NCBI GenBank assembly: GCA_050010515.1 | Contig: JBEKKX010000054.1 | Span: 1 to 11,748 of the forward strand | Direction of reading: 5' to 3' | Length of the DNA stretch: 11,748 nt | Source: Candidatus Bathyarchaeia archaeon | GTDB taxonomy: Archaea > Thermoproteota > Bathyarchaeia > Bathyarchaeales > Bathycorpusculaceae | Shown: positions 5,928-11,570 of the stretch, piece by piece | Layout of the letters: each line of letters starts with the position of its first letter | Position numbering within the stretch: the first letter of the stretch is position 1 | Position numbers and translations under genes: made by a program | Notes under the pieces: generated by a model | What the model was told of the DNA's origin: nothing | The model's input: the letters and a program-made list of their open reading frames with translations, nothing else | Database searches by the model: none

Positions 5928-6338
5928 TTACTGGAAGAAAAGCGTCTTTTGCTTTTTCGCAGCCCGATCACTTTGAAGCTTCTTATAAACCGCCTCAACA
6001 TTTTTTCTCTCAACATACCCCTTATGCGGACGGAAACCGCCGGAAAACCCGCCTGGAATATGCATAAGTTCATGAATCAAAGTTCTTTCCTTGTCCTCAT
6101 TAGACATTTTATCATAGATCTCCGAAATAACTTCAATAGTGTATGAGGGCGGAAGGTTTAGGACACCTTGCCAAATCTTGCCTAAACCGTGAATTCGTGC
6201 GATTGTGCGTCTGGCTTTGGAGCCTTTGCTTCTTACGCAGAAAACGAATTGTGGAACAACATGGTAGAACTCGCATTCTTCTGCCAACTGGTCTACTTGC
6301 TTTTTGATTTCTGGGGCTTCAAAGTATTTTATAGGCAC
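5928..6338 (-). CDS. Small HExxH zinc metallopeptidase (archaeal putative/phage metallopeptidase-like, minigluzincin/SprT-like fold)
   Basis: ERTLIHELMHIP motif with a downstream His (FRPH); RSKGSKARRTIARIHGLGKIWQ; GTG start at 6338 after GTGAGGA. Confidence 0.85.
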   Translation of the reverse strand: MPIKYFEAPEIKKQVDQLAEECEFYHVVPQFVFCVRSKGSKARRTIARIHGLGKIWQGVLNLPPSYTIEVISEIYDKMSNEDKERTLIHELMHIPGGFSGGFRPHKGYVERKNVEAVYKKLQSDRAAKKQKTLFFQ

Positions 6339-6388
6339 GGTCCTCACTCTCTCCTAATGGCATGTATAGCAATGTTTGGGTTTAAAAG

Positions 6389-9010
6389 TTACGTGCCTCT
6401 TTGAAGTATTTTCTTGAGCTCCATCCAGAAAGTTGCTACAAACGCGGCAACGATAACTACTACCCAATCCGTTTCGGTTAAGCTTGTTATTCTAAGCGCG
6501 ACTGCTATACCAGGCACGTTTGTTGCAATCACCAGTGTACCTATGGCCATTAATGCCCAAAGCACCATGACCTTGTTTGAAAGAACACCAAGCTTTGAAA
6601 GTGGCTCTTTGTCGGACCGGAGGTTTAAGGCTAACAGTATGTGGCCTAGCATCCATGTGGCGAAAGCTACGGTCTGCGCATGCATCAGAGCGGATGGGAT
6701 TGGGTTTCCATACCATGTAAACAGGTAAGTTGCCGTCACCGCGGCGAACAAGCTTACTGCGCCTAAGGCTAGGCTTGTAAGCATGCTCTTGTTGATGAAT
6801 TTCTCGTTTGGGTTGTTCGGCGGCTTATTCATTATGCCTGCTTCTCCTGGTTCAGCGACGAAGGTGGCGGATGCAGCTAAATCCATGAATAATTCAAGCA
6901 CTATGATTTGTATGGGTGCCAAGGGAAGAGGAATGCCCAGTATGATTGGGACAAGGAAAATGGAGACTAAAGCTACTTTGCAGGCTAAATAGTAGCGAAC
7001 ACCTTTCCTTAAGTTGCTGTAGAGTTTCCGTCCTTCTTTAACTGCGGTTTGTATAGTGGCAAAATTGTCATCAGTTAAAATCATATCCGCCGTTTCTTTA
7101 GCAACATCGGTTCCGCGGATGCCCATTGCAATGCCTATATGTGCTTCTTTGAGGGCTGGAGCATCGTTTATTCCGTCACCCGTGACAGCTACGACTTCGC
7201 CGTTCTCCTTTAAGAGCCGAACCAACCGCAGTTTATCTTCAGGAGTAACTCGCGCGAAAACATCAGTGTTCCTTAACGCTTTCTTTAAGTCATCGTCACT
7301 CATCTTTGAGATTTCAATGCCAGTTAACACGTTAACGCTGTTTATTCCAACCTGAAAAGCGATGGCTTTGGCGGTTTCTGGGTGGTCTCCAGTAATCATT
7401 ATGACTCTTATGCCGGCTTGTTGGCATGTGCGGATGGCTCCTTTGACTTCTTTTCTTGGCGGATCAATGAAGCCTAAAATGCCGACAAAAACGATATCCC
7501 TTTCAAGATTTTGCTTGTCAAACGCTGAATCAGCATTTAACCTGCGGTAACCAAAACCGAGTAGGCGTTCACCCGAATGGGCCATTTGCGCCATGACTCT
7601 ACTTATTTCGTTTCTTATGGCATCATTGAGCGGGGTTTCTTCACCTTTAACTAAGATTTTTGTAGAGTTAGCCAAGACTCTTTCAGGGGCACCACTGGAT
7701 AAGACCACAAGGGAATTACCATATTGGTAGATGTAGGAAGCGAGTTTTCGTTTAACATCAAAGCTTAACTCGTCTTTTAGAACCCAATCTTTCGATATAT
7801 TCTGAGTATCAATACCATCCTGTTTAATGCGTTCCAGAATTGCCTGAGCCATAGGATTGCCCAGAACCGTGTTGCTTTCCATGTTTCCGATGGCGTCGCT
7901 TGCTAAAAACGCGGTTTTTAATGCTGCTTTCTCATTTTCCTTAAAATCTTGGCTCTTGCGGATTGCCCCGTCAAAGTAGAGATGTTCTAGTCGCATTTTG
8001 TTTTCTGTTAAAGTGCCGGTTTTATCTGTGGCTATGACTGTTACGTTTCCAAGGGTTTCGGCTGCTCGTAAACGTTTCACGATAGCGCCTTTTTTGGATA
8101 ACGCGTAGCCGCCAACGCCCAAAACCATGGTGATAATGATGGGCAGTTCCTCAGGGATAACAACAAAAGCCAACGATAACCCGTAAAGCACTGCTTCTGC
8201 TGGATTAGGCTGTATATGTCTAAGGTAACTTAAAACTGGAATAAGAATGCTGAAGAAAAGAGCAATCCACACTAGCGTTTTAGAAAGCTGCTTCATAGCC
8301 AGCTGAAGGCTTGTTTTGGGTTCCTTTGCAGCTTTAGTTATGCCTGCAACTCTTCCAAGCTCCGTGTTTATTCCGGTTGCAGTTACTAGAGCTTTGGCTC
8401 TTCCTCGAGTGGTTATTGTTCCAGCGAAAAGCATGTTTGTTTGCTCTGTGATTCTGGTTTCGCTTGGCAACGTCGCTGTGGCATCTTTCGCTACTGGGAA
8501 CGACTCACCCGTTAATGAGGACTCATCAACTTCTAGTCCAAAGGCTTCAAGTAATCTCGCATCTGCAGGGACTCTTTGACCAGTTTTTAAAAGTAAAATG
8601 TCGCCTGGAACAAGAAAATCCGTTTGGGTCTCTTTTGGTTGCCCATCTCTAAGTACTAGTGCAGTCGGTGGCGCCAGCTGCCTTAGCGAAGCGATTGAGC
8701 GTTTGGCTCTATATTCATTCCAAACTTCAGCTAAAACAAGGATTATTATTACAACAATTATTGTTAGGGCATCCTCTAAATTGCCCAACACGCTGTAGAG
8801 TACTCCTATAGCGATAAGCAGAAGAATCATGGGTTCAGTTACTTCTTCCCTGAAAATGCTCAAAAAACGAATTTCCCTTTGCTGAACAAAGGAGTTTTTT
8901 CCATACTTGTTTAGCCGCTGTGCTGCTTCTTGCTCGGTTAAGCCTTTATCAGGATCCACATCTAATTGATGGATTAATTCTTCTGTTTCTCGTGAATGCC
9001 ACTGGCTCAT
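6389..9010 (-). CDS. Cation-transporting P-type ATPase (P2-like) with atypical ion-binding residues
   Basis: DESSLTGES, DKTGTLT, MITGDHP, TGDGINDAPAL motifs; about ten TM segments; start assigned to MSQWH (9010) after an AGGTG Shine-Dalgarno-like motif. Confidence 0.96.
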   Translation of the reverse strand: MSQWHSRETEELIHQLDVDPDKGLTEQEAAQRLNKYGKNSFVQQREIRFLSIFREEVTEPMILLLIAIGVLYSVLGNLEDALTIIVVIIILVLAEVWNEYRAKRSIASLRQLAPPTALVLRDGQPKETQTDFLVPGDILLLKTGQRVPADARLLEAFGLEVDESSLTGESFPVAKDATATLPSETRITEQTNMLFAGTITTRGRAKALVTATGINTELGRVAGITKAAKEPKTSLQLAMKQLSKTLVWIALFFSILIPVLSYLRHIQPNPAEAVLYGLSLAFVVIPEELPIIITMVLGVGGYALSKKGAIVKRLRAAETLGNVTVIATDKTGTLTENKMRLEHLYFDGAIRKSQDFKENEKAALKTAFLASDAIGNMESNTVLGNPMAQAILERIKQDGIDTQNISKDWVLKDELSFDVKRKLASYIYQYGNSLVVLSSGAPERVLANSTKILVKGEETPLNDAIRNEISRVMAQMAHSGERLLGFGYRRLNADSAFDKQNLERDIVFVGILGFIDPPRKEVKGAIRTCQQAGIRVIMITGDHPETAKAIAFQVGINSVNVLTGIEISKMSDDDLKKALRNTDVFARVTPEDKLRLVRLLKENGEVVAVTGDGINDAPALKEAHIGIAMGIRGTDVAKETADMILTDDNFATIQTAVKEGRKLYSNLRKGVRYYLACKVALVSIFLVPIILGIPLPLAPIQIIVLELFMDLAASATFVAEPGEAGIMNKPPNNPNEKFINKSMLTSLALGAVSLFAAVTATYLFTWYGNPIPSALMHAQTVAFATWMLGHILLALNLRSDKEPLSKLGVLSNKVMVLWALMAIGTLVIATNVPGIAVALRITSLTETDWVVVIVAAFVATFWMELKKILQRGT

Positions 9011-9030
9011 CCGCGCAGCACCTTGAACCA

Positions 9031-9051
9031 ATTTAAATTTCGCATAATTGG
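9031..9051 (-). promoter_or_regulatory. BRE/TATA promoter of the P-type ATPase, containing the AATTATGC motif
   Basis: Minus strand reads CCAATTATGCGAAA-TTTAAAT, ending about 20 nt before ATG 9010. Confidence 0.65.
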
Positions 9052-9255
9052 GAACTTGCGATTAGAAGGGAATTAGCCCTAAAAAGATTGCGTAGATAAT
9101 CGCTAGAATTAATAGCGCTCGTTATTTCCATTTTTCACTGTTTATGTTACGGGTTAAGCTTTGCCTTAATCGAAAAACAACGCTTTAATATAAAAAACAT
9201 GGTTTAATACTTAATAAAAAACCAAAAATACGCAATGAATCCGCATAGCTATAGC

Positions 9256-9275
9256 AAAAATAGGAAACTATTTTT
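9256..9275 (-). terminator. AT-rich hairpin downstream of the predicted omegaRNA guide
   Basis: AAAAATAG-GAAA-CTATTTTT perfect 8-bp inverted repeat about 26 nt beyond the element end. Confidence 0.4.
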
Positions 9276-9281
9276 CACAAC

Positions 9282-9455
9282 CGATACTGCGCTAATTATG
9301 CGGTTCTATTAGCTCTTCAGGTGTTTTGTCAAAGGTTTTAACCTTCGGCTGCAAGAGCTACTGGTTCGCATCGACTCTTAGGATTAGGCATTTGTCGTTC
9401 CTTTACCATTGCTTCACTTGCGAACCCGTCAGGCTTGAACCTCAAGCCTCGCTGG
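9282..9455 (-). ncRNA. Predicted omegaRNA (reRNA) scaffold plus guide, overlapping the tnpB 3' end
   Basis: Adjacent and nested complementary segments: 9431-9438/9442-9449, 9363-9370/9419-9426, 9310-9317/9353-9360, 9332-9336/9341-9345; position typical of TnpB omegaRNAs; boundaries approximate. Confidence 0.7.
9294..9301. repeat. 8-bp direct repeat AATTATGC, copy 1 (candidate target-site duplication)
   Basis: Identical to 10587-10594; abuts the element end GGTTCT. Confidence 0.7.
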
Positions 9456-10495
9456 ACAATATTGTAGGCTGCGTTCTCATCTCTGTCCATAAGACGATTA
9501 CAGTGCGAACAGTAGACGTTCCTCTCTGCACATTCGGTTATAGGTGAACCACATGTCGAACAGACTGAGGAAGTCTTCTGAGGCTTAACGTAAATTACTG
9601 GGATTCCTTCCCAAGCTGCTTTATACTCAATTTGCCTTTGAAGCTCATAAAAGCTCCAACTGTTAAGCCTTGAACGGTACTCTTTGCCTTGCCCATTTCC
9701 TTTCCGATAAAGCTTGCGTATGCCCTTTAGGTCTTCCATAACTATGCCCTGTTTAGTGGCGACGGCTTGTTGTACAATTACTTTGCTGACAAGGTGAAGT
9801 CGTTGATTAACTCTGTTGCTCTGTTTCTCGCCATATTTGCCGAAAACCTTCTTTATAATTCTAGAATCATTCCGTTTAAAATGAGATTTCACCGTTCTAT
9901 AGACAGCTTTGATTCTTGAGGCTTCTGAAAGATCATAAACCTGTGTTTGCCCGTTTAGAGTAGCGGTTGTTACATTATCGAGGTTGCGATCTATTCCAAT
10001 TAGCCCCATGAAGGGCATCTTGTTCGCAGTTTCTTTCGAAAAAGCTATTGATAATGTGCAAGCATTCAAAGAAACGCTTCTAACGGCATAGCTCGAAATA
10101 ACAGTTTTCGTATGCTTATTCAAAGGAATGTATATGCCTTTGTTGCGTTTGCCGACTAATCTTAGGTTTTGCCCCATGATTCTGAAACCGTAGCAGTCTG
10201 TTAACATTCTTTTGGTTGCAAACGGTTTTTTCGCTTGTGGATGCTGTTTGAGGGTTTTTTTGTAGTTGCTGATTATTCCGACTGCTTTGCTGATAGCTGT
10301 TAAGCGATAGTATGTTGGAACATTGTATCTTGCAAGTTGATGATACGCTTTCTTGTTGAGTGATTGTTTAGAGGTGACGTTTTCTGCTATCCCTATGCGT
10401 ATGCAGTCGTTGAGCATTTTTCTAAAATCGTCTATTAAATGGAGGATTTCAGGCGTTGGAACATAGTTTTGTTTTACTGCCTTAATTGCTAGCAC
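9338..10495 (-). CDS. tnpB: RNA-guided endonuclease TnpB
   Basis: RuvC-I GIDRNL, RuvC-II IVMEDL, WSFYELQRQIEYKAAWEG, zinc finger TSSVCSTCG...YCSHC, RuvC-III DRDENAAYNI; GTG start at 10495 about 33 nt below the TATA box. Confidence 0.96.
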   Translation of the reverse strand: MLAIKAVKQNYVPTPEILHLIDDFRKMLNDCIRIGIAENVTSKQSLNKKAYHQLARYNVPTYYRLTAISKAVGIISNYKKTLKQHPQAKKPFATKRMLTDCYGFRIMGQNLRLVGKRNKGIYIPLNKHTKTVISSYAVRSVSLNACTLSIAFSKETANKMPFMGLIGIDRNLDNVTTATLNGQTQVYDLSEASRIKAVYRTVKSHFKRNDSRIIKKVFGKYGEKQSNRVNQRLHLVSKVIVQQAVATKQGIVMEDLKGIRKLYRKGNGQGKEYRSRLNSWSFYELQRQIEYKAAWEGIPVIYVKPQKTSSVCSTCGSPITECAERNVYCSHCNRLMDRDENAAYNIVQRGLRFKPDGFASEAMVKERQMPNPKSRCEPVALAAEG

Positions 10496-10528
10496 AGCTA
10501 TTACGCAAGCATTTTGTCTATTTAACAA

Positions 10529-10537
10529 TTATATAAG
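10529..10537 (-). promoter_or_regulatory. TATA box of tnpB, inside the element
   Basis: CTTATATAA on the minus strand upstream of GTG 10495. Confidence 0.6.
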
Positions 10538-10586
10538 AACCCGAACATTAACTAGTAAAAACAGCCACTCAAGCGTTAACGGTACC

Positions 10587-10594
10587 AATTATGC
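10587..10594. repeat. 8-bp direct repeat AATTATGC, copy 2 (candidate target-site duplication)
   Basis: Identical to 9294-9301; abuts GGTACC at the element end. Confidence 0.7.
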
Positions 10595-10606
10595 AAAACT
10601 TTATTA
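10593..10606 (+). promoter_or_regulatory. BRE/TATA promoter of the 10647 gene
   Basis: GCAAAA-CTTTATTA about 40 nt upstream of TTG 10647. Confidence 0.55.
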
Positions 10607-10646
10607 CAGCGCCAAACGTTTTGGATTCTAAAAAGGTAGAAGTAAA

Positions 10647-11570
10647 TTGAAATTCGGCACATACATGTTTGAAGCAAAGAAAGTTTCAGGCTTCGACTTT
10701 GACCTTTTCCGCGTGAAACCAGAAGTAGGCAGACGATTACCACCACAACCTGACATGCATAGCAACATTGCGATTTTCGGAGACAACGTTACTGCTCGTA
10801 ATCATCCAGATTGGATTTCACAATCAGACCTAGGTCCTGCATGGAGAACAAACGACAACTTCAATGTTCGCTGGGACATTCTCTGTGCAACCCAACCAGA
10901 ACACCGCGCAGAACAACTAGATTACATCGAAGACGTCGCTAGGAAAAGCCCAGGAATATGGCTAAACAGCATCCACTTCGCAGACCATGGACACTGCGTA
11001 TGCCCGCGTTGTAAGGAACTCCATGAAAAAAGCGGCTTAAGCTGGTATGAATGGCGAAGAAAAGAAATCACCGATTACATGGCGCAAGTAAGCGAACGAG
11101 TACGCGACCGAGCCAAGAAAAAATTTGTCATCGGTGTTCTTCCAGACCCAGTTACCAACTATGAACGTTTCGGAGTTAACTTTGATGATCTGGCCCCGCT
11201 CACAGACGAATTCCTCGTAGTCATGTTCAGCAAAAACTACGCTACACCGTGGTATTGGGAAATGCTCACCCGTAACTTCAAGAAACTCTTAAAAGACGTA
11301 CCTCTCAACATTGCATTGTACGTTATCGGTCCAGGCGACGACCCAAGAGAAACGCCAACCACAAGTGAACTCTTAACAGTATCAGTCCGCATGGCACGCG
11401 CAGGAGTAGACAATATTCTTTACTTAACCGACAAAGCAAAGCAAATGCAGGATTTCCAGAAAGCTGCAGTAGCTCAGACTGATGTTCGAGAGCGTTTGAA
11501 GAGCTATGGTGGCAAACAAGGCCAAGAAGTTCTTGACTTAGTTACAAGCTGGGAAAAGATCGTAGAATAA
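10647..11570 (+). CDS. Uncharacterised glycoside-hydrolase-like TIM-barrel protein with a CxCxxC motif
   Basis: ARNHPDW, LCATQPEHR, GIWLNSIHF, HCVCPRC, WYEWRRKEITDYM and FGVNFDDLA patterns resemble GHL10/GH42-like barrels; the family assignment is tentative. Confidence 0.6.
   Translation: MKFGTYMFEAKKVSGFDFDLFRVKPEVGRRLPPQPDMHSNIAIFGDNVTARNHPDWISQSDLGPAWRTNDNFNVRWDILCATQPEHRAEQLDYIEDVARKSPGIWLNSIHFADHGHCVCPRCKELHEKSGLSWYEWRRKEITDYMAQVSERVRDRAKKKFVIGVLPDPVTNYERFGVNFDDLAPLTDEFLVVMFSKNYATPWYWEMLTRNFKKLLKDVPLNIALYVIGPGDDPRETPTTSELLTVSVRMARAGVDNILYLTDKAKQMQDFQKAAVAQTDVRERLKSYGGKQGQEVLDLVTSWEKIVE

What the first reader, a model, noticed from the sequence alone, without database searches (positions are those of the whole stretch)
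9031..10606. Predicted TnpB guide seed matches the BRE region of both flanking divergent promoters
Seen: the sequence right after the omegaRNA scaffold is (C)GCATAATT-AGCGCAG. TTTC-GCATAATT occurs at 9038-9049 (+) and TTTT-GCATAATT at 10598-10587 (-). Both lie against the BRE/TATA of the neighbouring genes: CCAATTATGCGAAATTTAAAT for the ATPase and CCAATTATGCAAAACTTTATTA for the GH-like gene. I found no other copies in the window by eye. Established: seed-only pairing lets Cas12/TnpB bind without cleaving, and TnpB-derived TldRs repress promoters. Inference: a catalytically intact TnpB might act as an RNA-guided regulator of both neighbours through a TTTY TAM plus an 8-9-nt seed. Alternatively the motif is a host transcription-factor site or the element's preferred insertion target.
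Basis: partly seen in the sequence, partly recalled or inferred. Interest (0 to 1): 0.75.

Follow-up and report, generated by a model that had tools for sequence, protein, structure and literature searches.

The report
TnpB insertion with 8-bp target duplication
One of the two "guide seed matches" is the duplicated target site left when a small TnpB mobile element inserted into a gene's promoter, and the other is most likely a chance match, so this is an ordinary insertion and not shown to be a regulator.

Summary
GCATAATT occurs three times in the window: 9042 (+), 9294 (-) and 10587 (-). The two flanking copies carry TTTC and TTTT.

The interpretation mostly fails.
- **The element.** It is a 1,285-bp TnpB-only transposon (9302-10586, minus strand). 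It has imperfect terminal inverted repeats and an omegaRNA with covariation support that ends ...AGAACC at 9302.
- **The left-end copy.** A same-genus genome (G225) and a metagenome contig show the empty site with one copy of the 8-mer. TTTT-GCATAATT at 10598-10587 is therefore the original TAM plus the left copy of an 8-bp target-site duplication. Relatives of the element show the same pattern: 9 of 22 copies repeat the first 7-11 nt of their guide just 5' of the left end.
- **The GH-like promoter core.** It predates the insertion: GCAAAACTTTAT is present in 19 of 21 relatives.
- **The ATPase-side copy.** The 8-mer is found in 0 of 12 relatives. It lies in an indel-rich stretch, probably the 5'UTR. 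Its TAM position -1 is C, seen in 0 of 11 family TAMs. Local recurrence is nominally unusual (P about 0.003-0.05), but the test was chosen post hoc.

Nothing supports a regulatory role for TnpB, and nothing tests it directly. This is a new member of a known kind.

The parts
9302..10586 (-). TnpB-only transposable element, 1,285 bp. The left end is at 10586 and the right end at 9302.
   Evidence: The empty site in G225 joins window 9301 to 10595 with a single 8-mer. A contig in run X17 skips 1,293 bp from 9293 to 10587 with 8 ambiguous letters. The element length is given.
9338..10495 (-). tnpB coding sequence, 385 aa from GTG at 10495; the stop codon is 9338-9340.
   Evidence: Pfam Cas12f1-like_TNB, 76.7 bits. 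NCBIfam NF040570 guided_TnpB, 121.6 bits against a cutoff of 100. PDB TnpB/Cas12f hits. D169, E254, D339 and the CxxC pairs are invariant in A1.
9302..9448 (-). omegaRNA scaffold. It overlaps the tnpB 3' end and ends ...GAGCTAATAGAACC. The 5' limit is approximate.
   Evidence: In the 23-sequence alignment A2, 16 of 17 predicted pairs have compensatory changes. No Rfam family matched.
9282..9301 (-). Predicted guide, GCATAATTAGCGCAGTATCG, taken from the DNA flanking the right end.
   Evidence: Sequence conservation in the family stops at AGAACC. The guide is identical to the G225 empty site for at least 30 nt after TTTT.
9294..9301 (-). Right copy of the 8-bp target-site duplication, which is also the first 8 nt of the guide.
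10587..10594 (-). Left copy of the 8-bp target-site duplication.
10595..10598 (-). TTTT in the TAM position of the original target. On the + strand it reads AAAA and forms part of the GH-like gene's BRE-like GCAAAA.
   Evidence: Empty site TTTT|GCATAATTAGCG. The 4 nt 5' of the direct repeat in 11 family copies have T at -2 in 11 of 11 and C at -1 in 0 of 11.
10563..10586 (-). Left-end terminal inverted repeat, GGTACCGTTAACGCTTGAGTGGCT.
   Evidence: 15 of 24 identical to the reverse complement of the right end in the window. The figure is 22/24, 22/24, 20/24, 18/24 and 17/24 in L045, L055, L047, L053 and L067.
9302..9325 (-). Right-end terminal inverted repeat, which is also the 3' stem half of the omegaRNA.
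10593..10606 (+). Core promoter of the GH-like gene, GCAAAA + CTTTATTA. It predates the insertion.
   Evidence: GCAAAACTTTAT is in 19 of 21 and AAAACTTTAT in 21 of 21 genus relatives at this locus.
9038..9049 (+). ATPase-side TTTC-GCATAATT, an 8-nt match to the guide seed. Most likely chance.
   Evidence: 0 of 12 relatives have the 8-mer and 4 of 12 have ATAATT. It lies in an indel-rich stretch.
9077..9086 (-). Conserved CTTTTTAGGG, a TATA-like candidate for the true ATPase promoter.
   Evidence: CCCTAAAAAG is nearly invariant in 11 aligned genus sequences. Its role as a promoter is inferred.

Best explanation
A 1,285-bp non-autonomous TnpB element inserted a few bases upstream of the BRE/TATA of the GH-like gene. 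It has imperfect terminal inverted repeats and carries only tnpB and its omegaRNA. Insertion duplicated 8 bp of target (GCATAATT). The omegaRNA guide is read from the DNA beyond the right end, so it starts with the right copy of that duplication. The left copy, still next to the original TAM-position TTTT, therefore matches the first 8 nt of the guide automatically. The full-length target, TTTT + GCATAATTAGCGCAGT..., exists only at unoccupied alleles. TnpB is expected to cut such alleles in the usual homing or retention role (inferred). The occupied left junction matches for only 8 nt and is spared. The third copy, on the ATPase side, is an unrelated AT-rich host sequence in a poorly conserved part of the ATPase upstream region. 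It matches the seed by chance.
For: - **Empty site.** G225 carries window 9191-9301 joined directly to 10587 onward with a single AATTATGC; flank identities are 96-98%. Independently, a contig in metagenome run X17 joins 9293 to 10587, skipping 1,293 bp with 8 ambiguous letters.
- **Right end.** About 20 related loci end in ...TTAACAGAACC and then diverge. Of 17 predicted omegaRNA pairs, 16 show compensatory changes.
- **Family pattern.** 9 of 22 related copies, the window's own copy (L049) included, repeat the first 7-11 nt of their right flank exactly at the left-end junction; per-copy shuffle controls (copies scoring at least 8 of 10) ran from 0 to 346 of 2000. Two more copies show 6-nt repeats. 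Terminal inverted repeats reach 22/24.
- **TnpB.** It scores above the NCBIfam guided_TnpB cutoff, and its D/E/D residues and zinc-finger cysteines are conserved.
- **GH promoter core.** It is conserved where no tnpB sits at this locus: TTATGCAAAA in 15 of 21, GCAAAACTTTAT in 19 of 21, and the exact 12-mer in 2 of 21 (G225, G217). In the 40-genome genus sample, the close tnpB family was found only in G217, at another locus.
- **ATPase side.** The 8-mer is in 0 of 12 relatives and ATAATT in 4 of 12. The site lies between conserved blocks in a stretch with indels. The 8-mer is not enriched genome-wide (162 against about 120).
Against: - The ATPase-side copy is nominally improbable. A random 8-mer with 2 G/C has a second copy within 300 nt in 5% of trials, and one preceded by TTTN in 0.27%.
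- Only 4 TTTN+GCATAATT sites exist in the genome, and 2 are here.
- Of 589 RAAAYTTWA sites genome-wide, only these two have AATTATGC upstream. General promoter consensus therefore does not explain the resemblance.
- Published work shows that a TnpB with a 10-nt guide binds DNA without cutting (PMC13507860, abstract and passages). TldRs use 9-11-nt guides with a seed of about 6 nt (PMC10705468, passages). Seed-only docking is therefore not excluded.
- 13 of 22 family copies show no clear direct repeat.
- No transposase that could have made the duplication was found. The element is single-copy in its genome.
Confidence: 0.8

Rival explanations
1. The nuclease-competent TnpB-omegaRNA docks without cutting at both TTTY + 8-nt seed sites and represses or modulates the ATPase and the GH-like gene.
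For: Both sites exist, and they are 2 of only 4 TTTN+8-mer sites in the genome. The local null gives P about 0.003 when TTTN is required. The GH-side TAM overlaps the conserved GCAAAA BRE-like element. Binding with a short guide and no cleavage is published for TnpB (10 nt) and for TldRs (9-11 nt) (PMC13507860 and PMC10705468, passages read).
Against: The GH-side site is a target-site duplication found at the left junction of many family copies wherever they inserted, so it carries no evidence of selection for regulation. The ATPase-side 8-mer is absent from 12 of 12 relatives. Its -1 base, C, is seen in 0 of 11 family TAM positions. The seed is 8 nt with 25% GC, and the engineered system worked better at higher GC (PMC13507860, passage). 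The RuvC triad is intact and the element has mobile-element ends, unlike TldRs. The insertion appears recent and is single-copy.
Confidence: 0.06
2. AATTATGC-RAAA-YTTWA is a binding site for a host factor that co-regulates the two divergent genes. The element happened to insert into one of the two sites.
For: The two promoter-proximal sequences share a 17-nt pattern found nowhere else among 589 RAAAYTTWA sites in the genome. The GH-side TTATGCAAAA is conserved in 15 of 21 relatives.
Against: The ATPase-side half is not conserved: 0 of 12 relatives have the 8-mer, and the more distant relatives lack the whole segment. GH-side conservation persists in genomes with no adjacent ATPase (G225, G204, G230). 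It is explained by the BRE/TATA itself. In relatives the 5' part, AATT, varies (TATTATGC, GCTTATGC and others).
Confidence: 0.07
3. The ATPase-side site is a second preferred insertion target, or a trace of past activity of the same element family.
For: It resembles the occupied left junction for 15 of 18 nt: TTTCGCATAATTGGGAAC against TTTTGCATAATTGGTACC. The GH-side site seems to have been used or retained in several lineages, since G204 and G230 keep left-end remnants at the same junction.
Against: The bases beyond the 8-mer (GG.A.C, then ACTTGCG) are host sequence shared with tnpB-free relatives (G221 GCAGACTTGCG, G223 GG-ACTTGCG). The duplicated target sequences of 9 family copies share no consensus. 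No element remnant adjoins the site.
Confidence: 0.05

Closest known systems
Solo TnpB elements with inverted terminal repeats, mobilised in trans (the DDE-transposase-associated TnpB branches of Altae-Tran et al. 2023, PMC10691335; passages read)
   Same: A TnpB gene lies within about 40 bp of a transposon end. The ends are symmetrical (inverted). There is no transposase gene inside the element. The guide is read from the flank.
   Different: No partner transposase was identified here. I could not place this TnpB in their named branches, because their supplementary files on transposon ends were not available. The passages I read do not describe an 8-11-bp variable duplication that becomes the start of the guide.
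IS200/IS605-family IS1341-type TnpB elements such as ISDra2 (reviews PMC13565253 and PMC4810608; passages read)
   Same: TnpB protein family with an intact RuvC. The omegaRNA overlaps the gene's 3' end and stops at the right end. A TAM lies 5' of the target. The expected role is cleavage of the empty allele.
   Different: Those elements lack terminal inverted repeats and make no target duplication. This element has both. The IS200_TnpB and IS607_TnpB NCBIfam models score far below their cutoffs (59.5 of 425 and 47.2 of 350).
Fanzor-carrying eukaryotic cut-and-paste transposons (10.1101/2023.08.09.552727 and PMC13565253; passages read)
   Same: A TnpB homologue rides on a non-autonomous element that has terminal inverted repeats and a target duplication. 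The inverted repeat forms part of the guide-RNA scaffold.
   Different: In those elements the duplication is short and fixed (TA, TTAN), and it is absorbed into the TAM or the scaffold. Here it is 7-11 bp, variable in sequence, and forms the start of the guide. The host here is an archaeon.
TldR, the TnpB-derived RNA-guided repressors (PMC10705468; passages read)
   Same: A TnpB-fold protein with a short-guide match next to a TAM over promoter elements.
   Different: TldRs have an inactivated RuvC, are domesticated, and have targets conserved across strains. Here the RuvC is intact, the element has transposon ends, and the ATPase-side target is not conserved.

Membership tests
RNA-guided endonuclease TnpB (protein family) | Family-model match, RuvC D-E-D triad and zinc-finger cysteines | tested here: met
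   NF040570 scores 121.6 bits, above its cutoff of 100. PF07282 scores 76.7 bits. D169, E254, D339 and C312/C315/C329/C332 are invariant in A1. The RuvC-III region aligns with PDB 8hr5.
RNA-guided endonuclease TnpB (protein family) | Structured omegaRNA that overlaps the gene's 3' end, stops at the right end and is followed by a variable guide | tested here: met
   16 of 17 predicted pairs show compensatory changes across 23 sequences. Conservation ends at AGAACC.
RNA-guided endonuclease TnpB (protein family) | RNA-guided, TAM-dependent DNA cleavage | not testable with these tools
   No RNA runs were listed for this organism. There is no biochemistry.
IS200/IS605 family (IS1341 group) | No target-site duplication on insertion | tested here: not met
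   An 8-bp duplication is shown by the empty site in G225 and in the run X17 contig. Direct repeats occur in 9 of 22 family copies.
IS200/IS605 family (IS1341 group) | No terminal inverted repeats; subterminal hairpins instead | tested here: not met
   The left end matches the reverse complement of the right end at 15/24 in the window and up to 22/24 in relatives.
IS607 family | No inverted repeats, no duplication, serine recombinase TnpA | tested here: not met
   Both a duplication and inverted repeats are present. No second ORF lies within the 1,285 bp. IS607_TnpB scores 47.2 bits against a cutoff of 350.
TnpB on cut-and-paste (TIR/TSD) transposons | Terminal inverted repeats plus a target-site duplication | tested here: met
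TnpB on cut-and-paste (TIR/TSD) transposons | A partner transposase with matching ends | tested here: inconclusive
   The element is single-copy in its own genome. A search for the TIR sequence in G121 found only the two elements and solo end remnants. No wider search was made.
TldR-type RNA-guided transcription factor | Inactivated RuvC, loss of mobility, and a conserved promoter target matching the guide | tested here: not met
   The RuvC residues are intact. Transposon ends and a fresh duplication are present. The ATPase-side target is absent in 12 of 12 relatives.

The most novel reading that the evidence does not exclude
In this TIR/TSD type of TnpB element, every fresh insertion creates a TAM plus a 7-11-nt match to the element's own guide at its left junction. 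The TnpB-omegaRNA complex might dock there without cutting. That could act as a built-in occupied-site mark or as a roadblock. In this window the docking site would sit on the BRE-like GCAAAA of the GH-like gene, and possibly also on the ATPase-side TTTC site in the 5'UTR. A nuclease-active TnpB would then influence its own and its neighbours' transcription.
Probability: 0.07. Interest if true: 0.7.

Novelty: new member of a known kind. Interest (0 to 1): 0.28.

Why it matters
The case shows how a guide 'seed match' beside a TnpB element can arise purely from insertion mechanics. When the element makes a target duplication, TAM plus seed always reappears at the left junction. Such matches should be discounted before proposing regulation. 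It also documents an archaeal TnpB-only element with a clean empty site, an 8-bp duplication, inverted-repeat ends and a TAM-position consensus of (T)T-T-[G/A/T]. That could guide TAM and guide assays for this clade. If the low-probability docking idea were true, it would be a step between selfish TnpB nucleases and TldR-like regulators.

Tried and rejected
- **Rfam.** A scan of the whole window at E<=1 gave no family, so the omegaRNA had to be defined by comparison.
- **Other copies in the same genome.** None was found by DNA or protein search, so the ends could not be defined from paralogues.
- **Family-wide protein search.** Among 200 other genomes of the family sample, only one (G121) has it at E<=1e-30.
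- **First right-end regex.** It picked wrong anchors for 5 loci and was redone with anchors read.
- **First null script.** It timed out and was rewritten.
- **General promoter consensus as an explanation.** Rejected: no base bias upstream of 589 RAAAYTTWA sites.
- **A conserved RNA in the ATPase upstream block (9012-9211).** 3 pairs and no covariation.
- **RNA evidence.** No RNA holder was listed, so expression and the omegaRNA 3' end remain untested.
- **A transposase partner.** The G121 search gave only remnants.
- **G217's related element (64% identity).** It shows no direct repeat.
- **Tools and papers.** Filee et al. 2007 is not held.
- **Supplements.** These were not available. The transposon-end files of PMC10691335 might show whether this clade is one of their DDE branches.
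- **Not searched.** I made no search that could support a claim that variable 7-11-bp duplications in prokaryotic TnpB elements are unpublished. Searches only showed that reviews describe IS200/IS605 and IS607 as lacking them.
Full report
**Setting.** The window is a whole 11,748-bp contig of a 2.38-Mb archaeal genome. It encodes a eukaryote-type topoisomerase IB, eRF1, a PF18894 metallopeptidase (5928-6347, -), a P-type cation ATPase (6389-9031, -; ATG at 9010), tnpB (9338-10495, -) and a conserved gene with a weak GHL10 match (10647-11570, +). From my own knowledge, topoisomerase IB in an archaeon suggests Nitrososphaeria; no call names the organism.

**The observation.** GCATAATT occurs exactly three times: 9042 (+), 9294 (-) and 10587 (-). 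Shuffles average 0.52 copies, and 1 of 200 reaches 3. TTTC and TTTT precede the two outer copies.

**The element and its RNA.**
- The protein is a TnpB. NF040570 scores 121.6 bits against a cutoff of 100, PF07282 matches, and PDB TnpB/Cas12f structures are hit.
- D169, E254, D339 and two CxxC pairs are conserved in an alignment with two 66-68% identical homologues.
- I collected relatives from one family genome (G121, two copies), GTDB contigs, metagenome contigs and one same-genus genome (G217).
- In about 20 loci, sequence conservation downstream of tnpB runs to ...TTAACAGAACC and then stops. The window reads ...GCTAATAGAACC | GCATAATTAGCGCAG.
- An RNAalifold consensus on 23 sequences gives 17 pairs, and 16 of them have compensatory changes.
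Rfam has no matching family.

**What the left-end copy is.**
- Same-genus genomes mostly lack a close relative of this tnpB. In the 40-genome sample only G217 has a close homologue, at a different locus; G221 and G225 hold only distant TnpB homologues (25-37% identity).
- G225 matches window 9191-9301 at 96% and 10587-11396 at 96%, and the two matches overlap by 8 bp. Read out, the G225 sequence is ...CGATACTGCGCTAATTATGCAAAACTTTATTAC, with one copy of the 8-mer.
- A contig in peat-metagenome run X17 independently joins 9293 to 10587. It skips 1,293 bp with 8 ambiguous letters, and its depth is about 199 against about 5 for the tnpB-bearing form. The shorter side of that joint is only 22 letters, but its variants match G225.
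- So 1,285 bp of element plus 8 bp of duplicated target were inserted. On the tnpB strand the empty site reads TTTT|GCATAATTAGCGCAGTATCGGTTGTG. It is identical to the guide region for over 30 nt.
- The left junction copy is therefore the original TAM-position TTTT plus the left half of the duplication. It is not an independent seed match.

**Family pattern.**
- In 9 of 22 related copies (counting the window's own copy, L049), the first 7-11 nt of the right flank recur exactly at the left junction. Per-copy shuffle controls for the 10-nt match (copies scoring at least 8 of 10) ranged from 0 to 346 of 2000.
- Two further copies have 6-nt repeats. Eleven of the 22 copies show neither, and G217's element, examined separately, shows none either.
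- The left end is an inverted copy of the right end: 22/24 in L045 and L055, 20/24 in L047, 18/24 in L053, 17/24 in L067 and 15/24 in the window. It is weak in L057, L062 and L069.
- Reviews describe IS200/IS605 and IS607 as having neither inverted repeats nor duplications (PMC13565253, PMC4810608, PMC6188088 abstract). This element therefore fails those membership tests.
- Prokaryotic TnpBs with inverted terminal repeats, including solo TnpBs thought to be mobilised in trans, are published (PMC10691335, passages).
- I found no partner transposase.
- The 4 nt 5' of the repeat in 11 copies are TTTG x4, TTTT, CTTG, GTTG, TGTT, GTTA, GCTA and AGTG. T is at -2 in 11 of 11, and C is at -1 in 0 of 11. 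These TnpBs are 41-100% identical, so their TAMs may differ.

**The GH-like promoter.** At this locus in 21 genus relatives, AAAACTTTAT is present in 21, GCAAAACTTTAT in 19, TTATGCAAAA in 15, and the exact AATTATGCAAAA in 2 (G225, G217). The core promoter is ancestral, and the element landed just upstream of it.

**The ATPase-side copy.**
- Among 12 relatives with the ATPase, none has GCATAATT or TTTCGCATAATT, and 4 have ATAATT. The closest relatives read TTCTGTATAATTG (G221) and TTCTGTATACTTG (G203).
- In an 11-sequence alignment the motif lies in an indel-rich stretch. It sits between a conserved non-coding AGGTGCTGC just upstream of the ATG and a conserved CCCTAAAAAG block at 9077-9086.
- I infer that the real promoter is the upstream TATA-like block and that the motif sits in the 5'UTR, not at the BRE.
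- The bases after the 8-mer that resemble the element's left tip (GG.A.C) are host sequence shared with relatives.

**Is the ATPase-side copy more than chance?**
- Genome-wide the 8-mer is not enriched: 162 copies against about 120 expected.
- Locally it is unusual. A random 2-G/C 8-mer has another copy within 300 nt in 5.2% of trials, and one with TTTN in 0.27%. Within 1,400 nt the figures are 19% and 0.8%.
- Only 4 TTTN+8-mer sites exist in the genome.
- Only these two of 589 RAAAYTTWA sites carry AATTATGC upstream.
- The criteria (seed length, TAM, distance) were chosen after seeing the data. The family TAM positions never show the C found here. I read the signal as weak.

**Mechanism.**
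- Shown: the insertion, the duplication, the ends, the RNA structure and the guide position.
- Inferred from the established TnpB model: the RNP cuts TTTT + full-match empty alleles, such as the one in the co-occurring G225-like population, and spares the occupied junction, which matches for only 8 nt.
- Seed-only docking is physically plausible. A TnpB with a 10-nt guide engages DNA without cutting (PMC13507860). TldRs use 9-11-nt guides with a seed of about 6 nt (PMC10705468). Here the evidence for it is a single unconserved 8-nt, 25%-GC match. No expression data exist.

**Verdict.** This is an ordinary, apparently recent TnpB insertion of the inverted-repeat and duplication type. One 'seed match' is explained by insertion mechanics and the other is probably chance. 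The regulator hypothesis remains at a few percent.

Noticed in passing
L027 (G204) 1480-1580 and L031 (G230) about 2300-2340; corresponds to window 10521-10598: Two same-genus genomes keep 66 nt (G204) and 28 nt (G230) of this element's left end at the same TTTTGCATAAT junction by the GH-like promoter. The sequence then runs straight into the upstream region of the metallopeptidase gene, with no tnpB and no ATPase. This is either a roughly 4.1-kb deletion from an occupied ancestor or repeated use of the same site.
   Followed up: partly
window about 6416-9190 compared with L026 (G225): G225 lacks the whole ATPase block but keeps the last ~27 nt of the ATPase reading frame next to the metallopeptidase upstream region. 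Presence of the ATPase is therefore polymorphic within the genus. The left break lies within 2-3 nt of the break seen in G204.
   Followed up: partly
window 9055-9150: A strongly conserved non-coding block lies upstream of the ATPase in 11 genus sequences (ACTTGCGATTA..GCCCTAAAAAGATTGCGTAGATAATCGCTAGAATT..CACTGTTTATGT). It shows no conserved RNA fold. It may hold the promoter and operator sites with repeated TTGCG, perhaps for a metal-responsive regulator.
   Followed up: partly
L086 1340-1520 (G121:C24) and L088 1500-1700 (G121:C38): Solo omegaRNA/right-end remnants without a tnpB ORF lie near the two full elements of G121. They may be stand-alone guide RNAs or decay products.
   Followed up: no
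window 10580-10586 compared with L027: The first 7 nt of the left end differ between the window (GGTACCG) and the G204 remnant (CCGTATC). The two are close to reverse complements of each other (5 of 7), as if a tiny palindromic tip had flipped.
   Followed up: no
run X17 laid on window 9132-9339 and 10588 onward: In one peat metagenome the tnpB-free, G225-like population is about 40 times deeper than the tnpB-bearing one. The guide's perfect target therefore exists in a co-occurring relative.
   Followed up: partly
L006 (G203) and L028 (G221), between the ATPase and the GH-like gene: These two relatives have about 1.28 kb between the two genes, against about 300 bp in other relatives, and no close relative of this tnpB was found there. 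About 1 kb is unaligned to the window and was not examined.
   Followed up: no
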